This document shows, in pieces, positions 1,185 to 6,554 of a stretch of 64,000 nucleotides of DNA. A program made the translations under genes and the position numbers. The notes under the pieces were generated by a model. The model did not search any database. It saw only the letters and a list, made by a program, of their open reading frames with translations, and was not told where the DNA came from. Source of the DNA: a virus (taxonomy: Duplodnaviria > Caudoviricetes); the IMG/VR virus record IMGVR_UViG_3300013121_000019, positions 32,001-96,000 of that record. One strand, written 5' to 3'. Positions within the stretch are counted from its first letter, which is position 1, and every line of letters starts with the position of its first letter.

Positions 1185-3257
1185 ATGAGTACCGACAACT
1201 TCCCGCAGTTCGCCAACATCGTGGCGCGATCGTTCCAGCACATGGTCAAAGACCCGGTCTTCGTGGCCAACATCGACGGCGACGCACTCTACCAGGCGTA
1301 CCTCGAGGCGTTTCCGGAGGGGACCAATCCCATCTTCAAGAAGGCCACGGAGCACGACTGCAGCTGCTGCCGGCACTTCATCAAGCGAGTCGGCACGGTG
1401 GTGACGATCGAGGGCCGTGAGGTCCGCACGATCTGGGACCACGCCACCCTGCAGGCTCCTGGTGTCTACGCCCACGTGGCAACCGTCCTGCGGAACCTCG
1501 TGCGTAGTGCTCGCATCCGCGACATCTTCCGCGTGGGTGCGCGAGAAACCCGGTTCGGGGCGAGGGTTTCGCGCTCCCTGGATCCCGAGACGCAACGGGC
1601 CATCACGTGGAACCACTTCTACACCGGGGAGATCCCCAGCAACCTGCGGACCGACCAGGTCGACACCGTGCGGGGCGACTACCGCACGACCGTGCAAGTC
1701 TTCGAGCGTGGTCTCGTCGAGCTCAAGCCCGACGCGATCGAGACCGTTCTCTCCCTCATCCAGGCCAACAACCTGTACCGGGGGGAAGAGCACAAGACGG
1801 CGGTCATGGGCTTCCAGAGGCTCCAGCGCGAGTTCAACGCCAAGAGCGCGGCCGACCGTAACCTCTTCGTGTGGGCGAACGCCAACAGCCCCGGTGCGCG
1901 GTTCCGCAACACCGTGATCGGCACGCTGGTGCAGGATCTCTCCGAGGGCATGGATCTCGAGGCGGCCGTCCGGTCCTTCGAGACCAAGGTAGCCCCGCAG
2001 AACTACAAGCGTACGACGGCGCTGATCACACCCATGATGGTGAAGAAGGCGATGGAGACGATCGAGTCCCTCGGTCTCGAGTCGGCTCTCGAGCGTCGCT
2101 TCGCGGTCATCGGCGACGTCTCGGTCAACGACGTCAAGTGGGTCGACGGCACGGTGAAGCCCCTGATGAAGGGCGGCATCGGCGACAGGCTGATGCAACA
2201 CGCCACCACGGGTCGCGTTTCTAGCAAGAGCGACGAGGAACGCGCCGAGGACATCAACATCGACGACTTCATGACGAAGGTCTTGCCGGAGACCCAGGGC
2301 ATGGAGATCCTGTTCAAGAACGAGCACGCAGGCAACCTGATGTCGCTCACGGCGCCCGTACACCCGGAACCCCGACAGCTCTTCCGATGGACCAACGACT
2401 TCGCCTGGTCGTACGGCGGGAACGTTGCCGACTCCATCAAGGAACGGGTCAAGAAGGCGGGAGGCCGGGTGACCGGCGTCCTGCGGGTCTCGCTCAGCTG
2501 GTTCAACTACGACGACCTGGACCTCCACATCGAGCAGCCGTCGGGCCGCGGTATGAACGCGGCGATCAACCGCATCTACTTCGGCAACAAGCACGGGTGG
2601 ACCGGCGGTACCCTCGACGTCGACATGAACGCGGGTCACGGGGCCACCCGTGAGCCGGTGGAGAACGTCATCTGGCCCGGCAAGATCCCCGATGGGTCTT
2701 ACAAGGTCGTGGTCAACAACTACTGCTTCCGCGAGTCCAGCAACCCTGGCTTCGTCATCGAGGTCGAGAACGGCGGCAAGGTCTCGCACTTCTCGTACAA
2801 CAAAAGCGTGAGGAGCGGGCAGGACATCCGCGTCTGCACGCTACACATGAAGGATGGCCTCATCGTCCAGGTCGACCCTGGTGACCCGGGCATCACCGCG
2901 TCCGCCATCTCGCAGGAGAAGTGGGGCCTCAAGACCGAGACCTACGCCAAGGTCACGGCCGTGATGTTGAGCCCCAACTACTGGGGCGATAACGCCGTCG
3001 GTAACAAGCACACGTTCTTCGTCCTCGAGGGAGCAAAGAGCGACGAGGACACTCGTGGGTTCTACAACGAGTTCCTCCACCCCCGCCTCGAGCAGCACCG
3101 CAAGGTGTTCGAGGTCATCGCCGACAAGACCAAGTGCCGTCCCACCGAGGGGCAGCTATCGGGACTCGGCTTCTCCTCCACCAAGAAGGAGACCTTCGTC
3201 GTCCGCGTCCAGCAGGGCAAGAAGCAGCGCCTGTTCAACGTGCACGTAGGCACCTGA
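1185..3257 (+). CDS. conserved large phage protein with YfaP/DUF2135-like C-terminal domain
   Basis: 690 aa; HDCSCC motif; SLSWFNYDDLDLH...LDVDMNAG...PVENVIW...GSYKVVVNNY resembles the YfaP-like beta-sandwich signature. Confidence 0.7.
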   Translation: MSTDNFPQFANIVARSFQHMVKDPVFVANIDGDALYQAYLEAFPEGTNPIFKKATEHDCSCCRHFIKRVGTVVTIEGREVRTIWDHATLQAPGVYAHVATVLRNLVRSARIRDIFRVGARETRFGARVSRSLDPETQRAITWNHFYTGEIPSNLRTDQVDTVRGDYRTTVQVFERGLVELKPDAIETVLSLIQANNLYRGEEHKTAVMGFQRLQREFNAKSAADRNLFVWANANSPGARFRNTVIGTLVQDLSEGMDLEAAVRSFETKVAPQNYKRTTALITPMMVKKAMETIESLGLESALERRFAVIGDVSVNDVKWVDGTVKPLMKGGIGDRLMQHATTGRVSSKSDEERAEDINIDDFMTKVLPETQGMEILFKNEHAGNLMSLTAPVHPEPRQLFRWTNDFAWSYGGNVADSIKERVKKAGGRVTGVLRVSLSWFNYDDLDLHIEQPSGRGMNAAINRIYFGNKHGWTGGTLDVDMNAGHGATREPVENVIWPGKIPDGSYKVVVNNYCFRESSNPGFVIEVENGGKVSHFSYNKSVRSGQDIRVCTLHMKDGLIVQVDPGDPGITASAISQEKWGLKTETYAKVTAVMLSPNYWGDNAVGNKHTFFVLEGAKSDEDTRGFYNEFLHPRLEQHRKVFEVIADKTKCRPTEGQLSGLGFSSTKKETFVVRVQQGKKQRLFNVHVGT

Positions 3258-3850: not shown

Positions 3851-4666
3851 ATGATGGCCGACATCAGCTTACTTGTTAGCGACGACGACGCAACGAACGC
3901 CAAACCCTGGCGACAACATGACCTAACCGGACAGGTCATTCACGAAGTGGTGGTGGAGGCATGCATCGCCACCACGATAGACAAGCAGAAGAAGTGGAGA
4001 GTTCGCTGTCTGTCTTGTGGAGGTGCGTTCGCGCGTACGACCTACGAGATCAATCAGTACCGACGTGACCGCACCACGTTTTCTTGTCGGACGTGCTTCG
4101 AGGAGCTTCGCGACGGCACGCGCAGTGAGCGTCGAAGCTACTGGCACATGCGCCTGAAGCAGTTCTGGGACCAGTACGGCATCCTGTACGGTGCCAGCTA
4201 CCATCACGCAGAGATCGAAGCCCTACGTGAGGCGTTCTTCGCCGACGAGGGACCGCCGATGGAGCATTTGCGACCGGAAGACCTGACGGTGGCAGTAGCT
4301 GGACGGAAACAGCCACACACTGCCCGTATTCAGAACGTCTTCGAGCTGTACCCGGTGAGGGCCGGCAAATCCGAGGCGTTCAATTGCGAGTACTGTAGCC
4401 GACTGCACACGAAGGGGTTCGCGTGCACGTGCTGCCGCACGGTGGTGTGCTGCGCGTGCGTGGAAAACGAAACGCATGCCTGCGAGGGCAGCGGGCACGA
4501 GCACGACGAGTCCGCTGGATGGGTGACCGATCGGCACGGGCAGCTGGTATACGACTGGTACGCCGGTAGTCAGCCGGAGTTCCTCAAGCGCATCGCGCAG
4601 TCCTGCCTGCTCTCCAAGGTCAAGGTGACCAAAGACGGTGGGCTGGCGACATTCCGACGAGCATAA
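3851..4666 (+). CDS. hypothetical Cys-rich (zinc-binding) protein
   Basis: AAGGAGG RBS; several CxxC motifs (CLSC, CRTC, CEYC, CTCC, CCAC). Confidence 0.7.
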   Translation: MMADISLLVSDDDATNAKPWRQHDLTGQVIHEVVVEACIATTIDKQKKWRVRCLSCGGAFARTTYEINQYRRDRTTFSCRTCFEELRDGTRSERRSYWHMRLKQFWDQYGILYGASYHHAEIEALREAFFADEGPPMEHLRPEDLTVAVAGRKQPHTARIQNVFELYPVRAGKSEAFNCEYCSRLHTKGFACTCCRTVVCCACVENETHACEGSGHEHDESAGWVTDRHGQLVYDWYAGSQPEFLKRIAQSCLLSKVKVTKDGGLATFRRA

Positions 4667-4762: not shown

Positions 4763-5419
4763 ATGACCGATAAGAAGACCGCAGATGATGCTGGTTCCGA
4801 GGCCAAGGGCCAGATCCCGCCGCCGAAGTTCGCGATCGCCGAGTTCATCCTGACCGGGAATGCCCCGTACGTCAGCAACAAGTTCTCCCAGGAGGCCCGC
4901 GAGATGATGCGGGCCAAGCAGGCAGCCGGCTCCACGGCTCGCAAGGGCGCCAAGCGCGAGCCCAAGGACTTCGACAAGTGCTTCAAGCAGTCGATGCACG
5001 CGACCGAGGACGGCAAGTACGGCGTGCCGGCGTCGTGCTTCAGGCAGGCCCTCGTCAGCGCTTGCCGCATCGTCGGGTTCAAGATGACGCTGGCGAAGCT
5101 CGCGCTGTTCGTGGTCGCCGACGGCATCGACGCGGACGACGCCAGCCCACTGGTGTTGTTCACGAAGGGGGAACCGCAGCACTTCGAGAGCGCCACCCGC
5201 AACGAGACCGGCGTGGCCGACATCCGCGCGCGTGGCAAGTGGGATACCGGATGGCAGATCCGTCTGCGCGTCCGGTACGACTCCGACATGTTCACGAAGT
5301 CCGATGTCACCAACCTGCTGGCGCGCGTCGGCGTGCAGGTCGGGATCGGCGCCGGAAGACCCGACTCCAAGACCTCCTGCGGTCAGGGATGGGGTACGTT
5401 CGATATCGAGGCGGTCTAG
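4763..5419 (+). CDS. stand-alone RAMP/Cas7-like RNA-binding protein (candidate effector of the adjacent 5-nt-period array)
   Basis: GAGGAGG RBS, ATG 4763, 218 aa. N-terminal strand EFILTGNAPY; YGVPASCFRQALVSA resembles the RAMP 'IPGSSLKGALR' helix; C-terminal Gly-rich loop GIGAGRP...GQGWGTF. No other cas genes in the window. Confidence 0.75.
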   Translation: MTDKKTADDAGSEAKGQIPPPKFAIAEFILTGNAPYVSNKFSQEAREMMRAKQAAGSTARKGAKREPKDFDKCFKQSMHATEDGKYGVPASCFRQALVSACRIVGFKMTLAKLALFVVADGIDADDASPLVLFTKGEPQHFESATRNETGVADIRARGKWDTGWQIRLRVRYDSDMFTKSDVTNLLARVGVQVGIGAGRPDSKTSCGQGWGTFDIEAV

Positions 5420-5420
5420 C

Positions 5421-6001
5421 GGCCAAGCTGGCTGAGCTAAGAATGGTGTGGCCCAGCATGCCTGAGCATGGCGAAGCGGGCAGGGCGTAGCTAGGAATGG
5501 CTAGTCAACGCACAGCGGGCATGGCATGGCTTGGCAACGCCAAGCAAGGCCAAGCAGGCTAGGTGGAGCAATCACGGGCTTGGATTGGCGAATCGTGGCA
5601 AAGCAGAGCGAGTCCAAGCAGGCTCAGCGCGGCGTGGCTTGGTCAGGCCAGGCAGGCGTGGCAGTGGAGGTGGAGCATGGAATAGACGAGTTCGGTCAGG
5701 CAACGCAGAGCCGGCGTGGCATGGCACCGCTGCGAGCAGCTCGGTAAAGCAAAGCCGGCGAGGCTTAGCTACACCAGGAAGGACAAGGCAAAGCAGGCGT
5801 GGCGGAGCGGAGCGGGGTGTGGCAAAGATGCGCGAAGCAGCGCAGGCCGCGCTGGGCATGGCAACACCGAGTAAGGAGGTGAATGGCCAGGCAGGCTGAG
5901 CAAGGTGTGGCGAGGCGGCGCAACGCGCAGCAGAGCTGAGCAGCACCATGCTGGCGTAGCTGAGCTTGGCGTCGCCCGGCGCGACGGGGCTTAGTGAAGC
6001 C
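5421..6001 (+). ncRNA. array of about 12 putative guide-like RNA units built from (RGC-NN)n pentamers
   Basis: Strict 5-nt periodicity from just after the stop codon to the terminator; phase resets at NGC-N-GGC junctions give units of 34-64 nt. Confidence 0.8.
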
Positions 6002-6040
6002 AGGAACGAACACCCTCTTCGGAGAGTGTTCGTTCCTTTT
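6002..6040 (+). terminator. intrinsic terminator closing the RAMP-like gene/array unit
   Basis: AGGAACGAACAC.CTC-TTCG-GAG.GTGTTCGTTCCT stem with cUUCGg loop, then TTTTAGCTAC. Confidence 0.9.
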
Positions 6041-6045
6041 AGCTA

Positions 6046-6408
6046 CTACTTCACTCGCGGATCGACCTTCGGAACGTGGCCAGACGGGTTGGCCTTCGGG
6101 ACGTCGGCCCGCGGATCCGCCTTGGCGACCAGCGTCTTGGCGGCCTTCTCGGCAGAAGGGTCTTTGGGCTCGCGCTTCTTCCGCGGGGCACCCGACAGCT
6201 CCGGCGTCGCCTTGTCCCGCTTCCGACGGAGCTCATCGATCAGCGTGTTGACCTGCTGACGGCAGGCCCCGCAGAGATCCTGGAACTCGAACGTCAGCGG
6301 CCACTTGACCTCGAGGGCAGGTCTGTGGGCGATCTGCTCTACCTTCGGCTGGTACTCGACGCGGGGGCACCGGTCGCACTGGATCTTGACGACCTCTTCA
6401 CGCGCCAC
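6046..6408 (-). CDS. hypothetical zinc-binding protein with basic tail
   Basis: CDRC...DLCGAC motifs; Lys/Pro-rich C-terminus. Confidence 0.65.
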   Translation of the reverse strand: MAREEVVKIQCDRCPRVEYQPKVEQIAHRPALEVKWPLTFEFQDLCGACRQQVNTLIDELRRKRDKATPELSGAPRKKREPKDPSAEKAAKTLVAKADPRADVPKANPSGHVPKVDPRVK

Positions 6409-6554
6409 GGACCTTACCCCGCAGCTTGTAGAAGAGGTACGTCTTGATCGCCGCCTTCTCGGACCTCACCAGGGGGTCGTTCGGCAGCGACTGGAACCAG
6501 GCGTCGAAGGCCGCGATGTCCGCGTCTACTTCCGCTTCGATCGCGGCCTTCTGG

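What the first reader, a model, noticed from the sequence alone, without database searches (positions are those of the whole stretch)
5426..6001. Array is segmented into about 12 units of length 5n+4 by NGC-N-GGC junctions
Seen in sequence: the 5-nt phase slips by exactly one base at AGCTGGC 5426, AGCGGGC 5475, AGCGGGC 5514, AGCAGGC 5553, AGCAGGC 5617, GGCAGGC 5651, AGCCGGC 5709, AGCCGGC 5753, AGCAGGC 5792, CGCAGGC 5841, GGCAGGC 5890 and TGCTGGC 5949. Unit lengths are 49, 39, 39, 64, 34, 58 (14+44, with an extra slip near 5665), 44, 39, 49, 49, 59 and ~49 nt. Every unit starts GGC, and the last dinucleotide always contains A (CA, AA, GA, AG, AC). The NN strings differ per unit, e.g. unit 1 TG TA AT GT CC AT TG AT GA; unit 2 AG GT TA AT TA AA AC; unit 3 AT AT TT AA CA AA CA; unit 4 TA GG AA CG TT TT GA GT AA AG GA CA. 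Units 2-4 are much more AT-rich than the genome. Inference: the junctions are processing or filament-boundary signals that release individual guides with 6-12 informative dinucleotides, playing the role CRISPR repeats do. AT-rich codes could point at promoters or at a lower-GC competitor.
Basis: partly seen in the sequence, partly recalled or inferred. Interest (0 to 1): 0.88.

Follow-up and report, generated by a model that had tools for sequence, protein, structure and literature searches.

The report
Phage VIPR staggered guide-RNA array
The five-base repeat tract cut into about 13 units by one-base register slips is real. It is the guide-RNA array of a VIPR system, a CRISPR-related RNA-guided DNA silencer of phages first described in 2026 preprints, so this is a new example of a known kind rather than a new system.

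Summary
Window 5421-6000 is a non-coding RGC-NN pentamer array, and its 5-nt period is unique in the 64 kb. Unit lengths are all 5n+4.

The gene just upstream (4763-5419, 218 aa) folds as a minimal Cas7-type RAMP. Its only sequence match among solved structures is the SUSP1 Vipr protein, and that match is weak. Gene plus array is therefore a VIPR system (bioRxiv 10.64898/2026.04.26.720920). That preprint already sketches "staggered arrays with overlapping vrRNAs" with a 1-nt overlap (fig. S18 legend), but names only the ribozyme-interspersed and single-vrRNA architectures as confirmed by small-RNA sequencing.

In 74 related loci, 554 of 594 slips are -1 and 434 of 434 junction-to-junction distances are 5n+4, with a mode of 49. 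The junction consensus is GGC-A|GGC. Two mycobacteriophages differ by exactly two whole units.

I found no convincing target for this phage's guides, and RNA ends could not be tested.

Follow-up notes of this scan report VIPR loci in other genomes (63 notes in at least 57 genomes hold these terms), two of them with staggered arrays.

Verdict: real, new member of a known kind, moderate interest.

The parts
4763..5419 (+). vipr gene: 218-aa minimal RAMP (Cas7-like). The open frame runs from GTG 4670; ATG 4763 is the start of the protein on record, P0001.
   Evidence: phrog_4652, no Pfam match. AF2 model pLDDT 86.4. Foldseek PDB hits are all Cas7/Csm3/Cmr4/type VII Cas7, E 2.5e-5 to 1e-3. VIA-align Z 10.9, rmsd 3.0 A over 151 residues to Cmr4. 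Weak match to SUSP1 Vipr over the G-loop region.
5421..5429 (+). 9-nt leader unit (GGCCA AGCT), ending in the first junction AGC-T|GGC
5430..5478 (+). unit 1, 49 nt, 9 full NN
5479..5517 (+). unit 2, 39 nt, 7 NN (21% G+C)
5518..5556 (+). unit 3, 39 nt, 7 NN (14% G+C)
5557..5620 (+). unit 4, 64 nt, 12 NN
5621..5654 (+). unit 5, 34 nt, 6 NN
5655..5668 (+). mini-unit, 14 nt, ending in the atypical slip TGGA|GGT. Short units of 14-34 nt form a minor class across the family.
5669..5712 (+). unit 7, 44 nt, 8 NN. It has the most degenerate pentamers.
5713..5756 (+). unit 8, 44 nt, 8 NN
5757..5795 (+). unit 9, 39 nt, 7 NN
5796..5844 (+). unit 10, 49 nt, 9 NN
5845..5893 (+). unit 11, 49 nt, 9 NN
5894..5952 (+). 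unit 12, 59 nt, 11 NN
5953..6000 (+). last unit, about 48 nt. It runs into the terminator instead of a junction.
6001..6040 (+). intrinsic terminator: a 12-bp stem, then a 3-bp stem capped by a UUCG loop, followed by UUUU
   Evidence: -25.1 kcal/mol, z -5.45, none of 200 shuffles folds as well
3851..4666 (+). 271-aa Cys-rich ORFan directly upstream of vipr. It may or may not be an accessory (vap) gene.
   Evidence: No Pfam or PHROG match. Only one near-identical relative among 5.8 billion proteins.

Best explanation
This is a VIPR (Viral Interference Programmable Repeat) locus of an uncultured 132-kb wastewater phage, with a 'staggered' vrRNA array.

Proposed mechanism:
- vipr and the array are transcribed together on the + strand and stop at the hairpin at 6001-6040.
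- Vipr protomers bind one pentamer each. They sequester the R-G-C bases and expose the NN pairs.
- The exposed NN pairs read double-stranded DNA with one target base skipped per pentamer. This rule is published for type II VIPR.
- At each GC-N|GGC junction the next GGC lies 4 nt away instead of 5, so a filament in one register cannot continue.
- Each 5n+4 unit, with 6-12 informative dinucleotides, therefore forms its own guide RNP. The register slip and its GGC start signal do the job that a pseudoknot tail, a ribozyme or a CRISPR repeat does elsewhere.

Shown here: the anatomy, the RAMP fold, the conservation of the protein-array pairing and of the junction grammar, and modular gain or loss of units.

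Taken from the literature: the Vipr filament and the gapped code.

Inferred: filament termination at the slip, physical release of the units, and the targets.
For: Array: it is real, has a 5-nt period and is unique in the window.

Protein:
- It has a RAMP/Cas7 fold.
- hhalign to SUSP1 Vipr aligns the G-loop region (probability 51%, E 1.5e-4).
- The only PDB sequence hit of the family profile is 'SUSP1 Vipr protein' 36pp (E 0.81).

Pairing of protein and array:
- Homologues sit next to same-strand pentamer arrays in a cyanophage and two Mycobacterium phages.
- The same holds in 74 of the 84 sequences scanned, which were 80 IMG/VR loci, the three phage loci above and the window.
- It also holds in a 140-kb relative and in a 3.9-kb contig.

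Junction grammar:
- 554 of 594 slips are -1.
- 434 of 434 unit lengths are 5n+4, with a mode of 49 nt.
- The junction logo is GGC-A|GGC, with A at 81%.
- In L076 the internal pentamers are CGC but units still begin GGC after GCA.

Modularity: the Donkeykong and Brocalys arrays are identical apart from a 113-nt indel, equal to two units of 59 + 54 nt, and one substitution in an NN position.

Guide turnover: relatives with 82-84% identical Vipr carry entirely different NN strings.

Oligomer model: three copies of Vipr are predicted head to tail. The score is 0.59 against a best control of 0.00. The mark was reached by 20 of 30 proteins solved as pairs of one chain and by 1 of 23 solved as single chains. 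The runs agree in at least 80% of contacts and partner pLDDT is at least 80. The pass may reflect memory of solved Cas7 filaments.

Literature:
- VIPR, its seven types and staggered arrays with a 1-nt overlap.
- One protomer per repeat, with two adjacent protomers holding each GGY.

Expression hint: contigs from RNA libraries of sludge metatranscriptomes (three studies) cover 5634-6011 and parts of vipr at 99% identity or more.
Against: - No RNA 5' or 3' ends are available. The RNA-library pieces are assembled contigs and could come from contaminating DNA.
- The preprint's text names only the ribozyme and single-vrRNA architectures as confirmed by sRNA-seq, so staggered arrays appear unconfirmed.
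- The window's pentamers are looser than the canonical GGY: many are AGC or CGC, and some are GGT or not GC at all.
- The junction base is A in only 6 of the 13 junctions, against 81% in the family.
- The accessory gene that accompanies vipr in relatives (phrog_15946) is absent from this 132-kb record, which is 72% complete.
- No convincing DNA target was found for any unit.
- Sequence similarity to the characterised SUSP1 Vipr is marginal.
Confidence: 0.8

Rival explanations
1. It is a VIPR array, but the units are not released. The roughly 580-nt transcript stays whole and carries a string of short Vipr filaments joined at the register breaks, forming a tethered multi-guide particle.
For: - There is no ribozyme, tail or hairpin between units.
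- A 1-nt 'overlap' cannot give both neighbours intact from one transcript.
- Only one terminator is present, at the end of the array.
Against: - The preprint's fig. S18 legend speaks of individual processed vrRNAs.
- Published VIPR guides are under 100 nt.
- The conserved junction A and the GGC start suggest a specific signal rather than a passive hinge.
Confidence: 0.13
2. The array is a decoy or hijacking set of vrRNAs. It would load a competitor's Vipr or titrate it, as the solo vrRNAs of satellites do, rather than arm the phage's own Vipr.
For: - Solo vrRNAs that redirect another element's VIPR are published (abstract).
- The window's pentamers are unusually degenerate.
Against: - The array directly follows its own vipr gene on the same strand, under one terminator.
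- This pairing is conserved in 74 loci.
- The array is 100% conserved in a second sample.
Confidence: 0.04
3. It is a DNA-level element and not an RNA: a protein-binding or recombination repeat with a 5-bp period.
For: GGC every 5 bp, which is half a helical turn, could phase a DNA-binding protein.
Against: - The orientation relative to vipr is the same in every array checked.
- A terminator closes the array.
- The neighbouring protein has an RNA-binding RAMP fold.
- Published VIPR arrays are expressed RNAs.
Confidence: 0.02

Closest known systems
VIPR systems with staggered vrRNA arrays (bioRxiv 10.64898/2026.04.26.720920, main text and fig. S18 legend)
   Same: - A phage-encoded minimal RAMP sits next to GGY/NN pentamer arrays.
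- Adjacent guides are offset so that the end of one marks the start of the next (1-nt overlap). This equals the 5n+4 spacing seen here.
   Different: - The preprint gives one representative locus and no quantification in the text held here, and does not name this architecture among those confirmed by sRNA-seq.
- Here the first pentamer base is relaxed to R (often AGC).
- The junction base varies.
- No recognisable vap gene is present.
- Which of the seven types this clade belongs to cannot be told from the text held.
Type II VIPR of Escherichia phage SUSP1 (Vipr, vap1, four vrRNAs; PDB 36pp)
   Same: - A pentamer code with a small Vipr, and arrays on the gene strand beside the gene. I located the SUSP1 locus in KT454805 at about 27.5-29.5 kb, with 26 pattern matches where shuffles give none.
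- The G-loop region aligns.
   Different: - SUSP1 guides are GGT-rich, separate units of about 100 nt, each capped by a conserved 40-nt pseudoknot tail.
- The window has no tails. Units abut with a -1 slip.
- Protein similarity is marginal.
Class 1 CRISPR Cas7 backbone on crRNA
   Same: - The RAMP fold is shared (Z 8-11 to Csm3, Cmr4, gRAMP and Csf2).
- One protomer binds per fixed RNA step, and head-to-tail oligomers are predicted.
   Different: - The step is 5 nt with three bases sequestered, rather than 6 nt with one base flipped.
- There are no 25-40-nt repeats. TRF finds only 5- and 10-nt periods in the array itself.
- No Cas5 or Cas6 caps were seen next to the array. cas1, cas2, cas5 and cas6 were not searched for.
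Hammerhead-ribozyme-interspersed VIPR arrays (same preprint, fig. S19)
   Same: Several guides are encoded head to tail in one transcript.
   Different: Those arrays delimit guides by self-cleaving ribozymes. No Rfam family matches window 5000-6500 at E up to 1.

Membership tests
VIPR system | Vipr protein: a small single-RRM RAMP with a glycine-rich loop | tested here: met
   - The 218-aa AF2 model has pLDDT 86.4.
- All listed Foldseek hits are Cas7-class RAMPs.
- VIA-align gives Z 10.9, rmsd 3.0 A over 151 aligned residues to Cmr4, and 26 chains reach Z 8 or more, almost all RAMPs.
- An invariant G-x-G-x-G-R-P...G..W-G-x-F loop is seen in the alignment.
VIPR system | Sequence homology to an experimentally characterised Vipr (SUSP1) | tested here: inconclusive
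   hhalign gives probability 51% and E 1.5e-4 over 53 columns. The family profile against PDB sequences has a single hit, 36pp 'SUSP1 Vipr protein', at E 0.81. The direction is right but the statistics are weak.
VIPR system | An adjacent same-strand non-coding array of GGY-NN pentamers with a conserved trinucleotide and hypervariable NN | tested here: met
   See for the window. The family logo shows G 0.82-0.98, G 0.88-0.98 and C 0.70-0.93, against near-even NN positions. The window's first base is R rather than G. The preprint lists relaxed variants of this kind (YNNNG).
VIPR system | Encoded by a phage or provirus | tested here: met
   G000 is a virus record of 132 kb. The neighbouring genes match PHROG families. 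Relatives lie in isolated phages and in IMG/VR contigs.
VIPR system | An accessory vap gene beside vipr (typical, not universal) | tested here: inconclusive
   The accessory gene of related loci (phrog_15946) gives no match in the 132-kb record. An ORFan Cys-rich gene sits upstream instead.
VIPR system | vrRNAs are expressed and bound by Vipr | not testable with these tools
   The only hint is that RNA-library contigs cover parts of the array and of vipr.
VIPR system | Targets are read with the 1-nt-skip (NNx) code | tested here: inconclusive
   - There is no self-target.
- 304 family units scanned against 645 kb of DNA in hand gave 43 matches of about 85% or more (binned to the nearest 5%) with skip 1, against 20 with skip 0 and 25 with skip 2. 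The script machine was then lost, so these hits were not inspected.
- Exact scans of public collections gave only chance-level hits.
VIPR staggered array (fig. S18) | Neighbouring guides are offset by a 1-nt overlap, so start-to-start distance is 5n-1 | tested here: met
   All 12 slips in the window are -1 and all units are 5n+4. The family gives 434 of 434.
CRISPR-Cas | An array of direct repeats of 20 nt or more separated by unique spacers | tested here: not met
   Within the array, TRF finds only 5- and 10-nt periods. No Rfam CRISPR repeat family matches. The cas1, cas2, cas5 and cas6 genes were not searched for.

The most novel reading that the evidence does not exclude
In this large VIPR clade, guide boundaries are encoded by nothing more than a one-base register slip with a GC-A|GGC signal. 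Vipr filaments stop themselves at the slip, so no tail, ribozyme or Cas6-like nuclease is needed. Whole guides are gained and lost as cassettes by recombination between junctions. That would be the most compact way known of packing many guides into one transcript, at 35-65 nt per guide with no spacer overhead.
Probability: 0.45. Interest if true: 0.55.

Novelty: new member of a known kind. Interest (0 to 1): 0.35.

Why it matters
VIPR is a very recent addition to the RNA-guided systems and is proposed to be older than CRISPR. The staggered architecture is, in the text held, the one array type the preprint does not name as confirmed by small-RNA sequencing.

This window and 74 related loci give it a quantitative grammar: strictly 5n+4 units with a mode of 10 pentamers, a GC-A|GGC junction, and a GGC start even where the internal pentamers differ. 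They also give a natural example of cassette-like gain or loss.

That makes a simple question testable: can a register slip alone delimit guides? If it can, multi-guide VIPR constructs could be built without tails or ribozymes.

For genome annotation, these arrays are being called as protein genes, for example Donkeykong gp48.

Tried and rejected
Target search in this phage's own genome: the best NNx matches of the 13 units equal those of shuffled controls, for example 13/18 and 15/24.

Exact gapped-pattern scans of IMG/VR:
- Window units 4, 12 and 1 (9 NN each) gave 0 hits.
- Donkeykong units B and F (10 NN each) gave 0 hits.
- Window units 13 and 11 gave one hit each.
- Both hits lie in low-GC contigs. 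The skipped base falls on codon position 2 in one and position 1 in the other, not on the wobble base. The unit 13 hit does not extend cleanly to the 10th NN. I read both as chance.

Metagenome scan: unit 12 (9 NN) gave 11 hits, about the number I would expect by chance from a rough estimate of database size, and none extends to the 10th NN.

These scans need perfect matches. Published targets were accepted at 80% NN identity or more, so real targets may have been missed.

Script machine: it was lost. The best skip-1 hits could not be listed, and no mismatch-tolerant or codon-spelled search could be run.

Other negatives:
- Rfam found nothing.
- blastn of the array against phage genomes found nothing.
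- The consensus promoter/terminator scan missed the real terminator and found no promoter.
- Folding the whole array gives z -2.77, but no defined structure dominates the ensemble.

RNA-library contigs: parts of the stretch without cover say nothing.

Ideas considered from memory and dropped once the RAMP fold and the VIPR papers were found: a TRAP-like ring binding GAG-NN repeats, and a CsrB-like protein sponge.

Full report
**The observation**

Window 5421-6000 has no plausible coding frame. It shows a strong 5-nt period: identity is 0.449 at lag 5 and 0.406 at lag 10, against 0.226 at lag 5 in the gene upstream. The five best 300-nt windows of the whole 64 kb all lie here.

A five-phase Viterbi trace finds that the phase changes 12 times, always by -1.

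After exact placement of the junctions, the units are 49, 39, 39, 64, 34, 14, 44, 44, 39, 49, 49 and 59 nt, then about 48 nt. A 9-nt leader precedes them, directly after the stop codon of the upstream gene. A strong hairpin with a U-run follows (-25.1 kcal/mol, z -5.45).

An independent assembly from another sequencing run carries the same 646 bases without a single difference. The array is therefore not an assembly artefact.

**What it is**

The upstream gene (4763-5419, 218 aa) has no Pfam match and hits only PHROG 4652, which has no known function.

Its AlphaFold model (pLDDT 86.4) matches only RAMP proteins of the Cas7 class:
- Foldseek gives E 2.5e-5 to 1e-3 against Cmr4, Csm3, type VII Cas7 and Cas7-11.
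- An aligner that does not depend on Foldseek gives Z 10.9 (rmsd 3.0 A, 151 residues) to Cmr4, with nearly all of the 26 chains at Z 8 or more being RAMPs.

A full-text search for pentanucleotide repeats in phages turned up bioRxiv 10.64898/2026.04.26.720920. It describes VIPR systems as follows:
- They consist of a minimal phage-encoded RAMP (Vipr) plus vrRNAs made of 9-16 GGY-NN repeats.
- The NN pairs read double-stranded DNA while skipping one target base per repeat.
- Seven types are defined.
- Listed array architectures include 'staggered arrays with overlapping vrRNAs'. The fig. S18 legend says the vrRNAs derive from 1-nt overlapping positions, so that the end of one marks the start of the next.

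The text says the ribozyme and single-vrRNA architectures were confirmed by sRNA-seq. The staggered one is not named among them.

A companion cryo-EM preprint shows one Vipr protomer per repeat, with each GGY held jointly by two adjacent protomers and the SUSP1 filament capped by a 3' pseudoknot.

I located the SUSP1 locus itself in KT454805. The window's family profile aligns with SUSP1 Vipr over the G-loop region (hhalign probability 51%, E 1.5e-4). SUSP1 Vipr (PDB 36pp) is the only hit of the profile among all PDB sequences, at a weak E of 0.81.

**Comparative evidence**

The protein family is large: 1249 proteins at E up to 1e-3. It is spread over many phyla, with the closest relatives in Planctomycetota, Omnitrophota and Verrucomicrobiota bins.

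Homologues sit next to pentamer arrays in:
- Cyanophage Cy-LDV1, with two arrays;
- Mycobacterium phages Donkeykong and Brocalys;
- 74 of the 84 sequences scanned, namely 80 IMG/VR loci, the three phage loci above and the window.

The arrays lie on the gene's strand. One apparent exception, L076, turned out to use CGC-NN pentamers on the gene strand.

Over 103 distinct arrays:
- 554 of 594 phase changes are -1.
- All 434 distances between successive junctions are 5n+4. The peaks are at 49 (82 units), 54 (64), 44 (59), 59 (56) and 39 (34), with a minor class of 14-34 nt.
- The junction logo is GGC-A|GGC, with A at 81%.

In L076 the units still begin with GGC after GCA. In the window every regular unit begins GGC, although only about half of the internal pentamers start with G. 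The junction is therefore a signal of its own and not merely a short pentamer.

The Donkeykong and Brocalys arrays are identical except for one substitution in an NN position and a 113-nt indel equal to two whole units of 59 + 54 nt.

Relatives whose Vipr is 82-84% identical to the window's have the same grammar but unrelated NN strings. One of them carries two arrays of about 1 kb each.

**Mechanism**

The best-supported reading is that each unit is one guide. A Vipr filament that reads GGC every 5 nt cannot cross a place where the next GGC comes after 4 nt, so each unit would nucleate its own filament.

A three-copy prediction of the window's Vipr gives a head-to-tail chain:
- The score is 0.59, and the best of 3 controls scores 0.00.
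- The mark was reached by 20 of 30 proteins solved as pairs of one chain and by 1 of 23 solved as single chains.
- The runs agree in at least 80% of contacts, and partner pLDDT is at least 80.
- Because Cas7 filaments are solved, the pass may be memory of those structures.

Whether the units are cut apart, and by what, is not shown. RNA-library contigs from sludge metatranscriptomes (three studies) cover 5634-6011 and parts of vipr at 99% identity or more. Contigs cannot show RNA ends, and contaminating DNA is not excluded.

**Targets**

- No unit matches the phage's own 132-kb genome better than shuffled controls do. The published systems likewise show no self-targeting.
- I scanned 304 family units against 645 kb of DNA in hand. 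Skip 1 gave 43 matches of about 85% or more (binned to the nearest 5%), against 20 for skip 0 and 25 for skip 2. The script machine failed before these hits could be inspected.
- Exact gapped scans of IMG/VR and of JGI metagenomes gave nothing, or chance-level hits with the wrong codon phase.

The targets of this phage's guides remain unknown.

The AT-richness of units 2-4 (14-38% G+C against 62% for the window) needs no special explanation. NN positions are about 60% A+T across the family. The published code also reads codon positions 1-2, which are less GC-rich than the genome in high-GC organisms.

**How this locus differs from the described systems**

- The pentamers are relaxed to R-G-C, many of them AGC.
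- The junction base is A in only 6 of the 13 junctions.
- There is no tail.
- The accessory gene that follows vipr in related loci is missing from the record. That gene is phrog_15946, with a conserved LH..FEW.D..AA...R.WQAR motif.
- The gene upstream is an ORFan.

None of these features defines the family.

**Verdict**

Its core interpretation agrees with a 2026 preprint and with the comparative data gathered here. The system is a new member of a known kind.

Follow-up notes of this scan report VIPR loci in other genomes (63 notes in at least 57 genomes hold these terms), two of them with staggered arrays. I reached the identification independently.

Noticed in passing
L002 3444-3830 (Mycobacterium phage Donkeykong gp48): The annotated 'hypothetical protein' CDS gp48 is the GGC-NN vrRNA array, with lag-5 identity up to 0.68. 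It is almost certainly not a protein gene. In Brocalys the same stretch is left unannotated.
   Followed up: partly
L007 3599-4054; L019 3564-4067; L001 4822-5403; L002 4558-5013: A conserved gene of 150-190 aa (phrog_15946, motif LH..FEW(N/D)D..AA...R.WQAR..I) follows vipr in the cyanophage, the mycobacteriophages and IMG/VR loci. It is probably this clade's vap accessory gene. It has no Pfam match and is absent from the window's genome.
   Followed up: partly
L076 2770-2880 and 3600-3710: A variant array has CGC-NN as its internal pentamers, but every unit still starts with GGC after a GCA junction.
   Followed up: partly
L001 4612-4802 and 5400-5560 (Cyanophage Cy-LDV1): Two short arrays flank the accessory gene, downstream of vipr and just before the excisionase. 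In the mycobacteriophages the locus also sits between the immunity region and xis.
   Followed up: no
window 6056-6123: A 27-nt tandem repeat (2.5 copies, 72% matches) lies inside the minus-strand 120-aa gene at 6046-6408. That gene encodes a CxxC...CxxC protein with a lysine- and proline-rich repeated tail.
   Followed up: no
window 1185-3257: A 690-aa protein matches phrog_1735 (E 1e-235), a widespread phage family of unknown function with no Pfam domain. It lies two genes upstream of the VIPR locus.
   Followed up: no
L127 1500-2480 and 3226-4200: A 140-kb relative (Vipr 84% identical) carries two arrays of about 1 kb on both sides of vipr. By eye this is roughly 40 units, about three times the window's complement. 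It sits next to a LexA-like gene and an integrase.
   Followed up: partly
(control genomes): Both PHROG 4652 (Vipr) and PHROG 15946 (the accessory gene) match in the Caulobacter vibrioides control genome. This suggests that a VIPR locus of this clade is present in a laboratory model organism.
   Followed up: no
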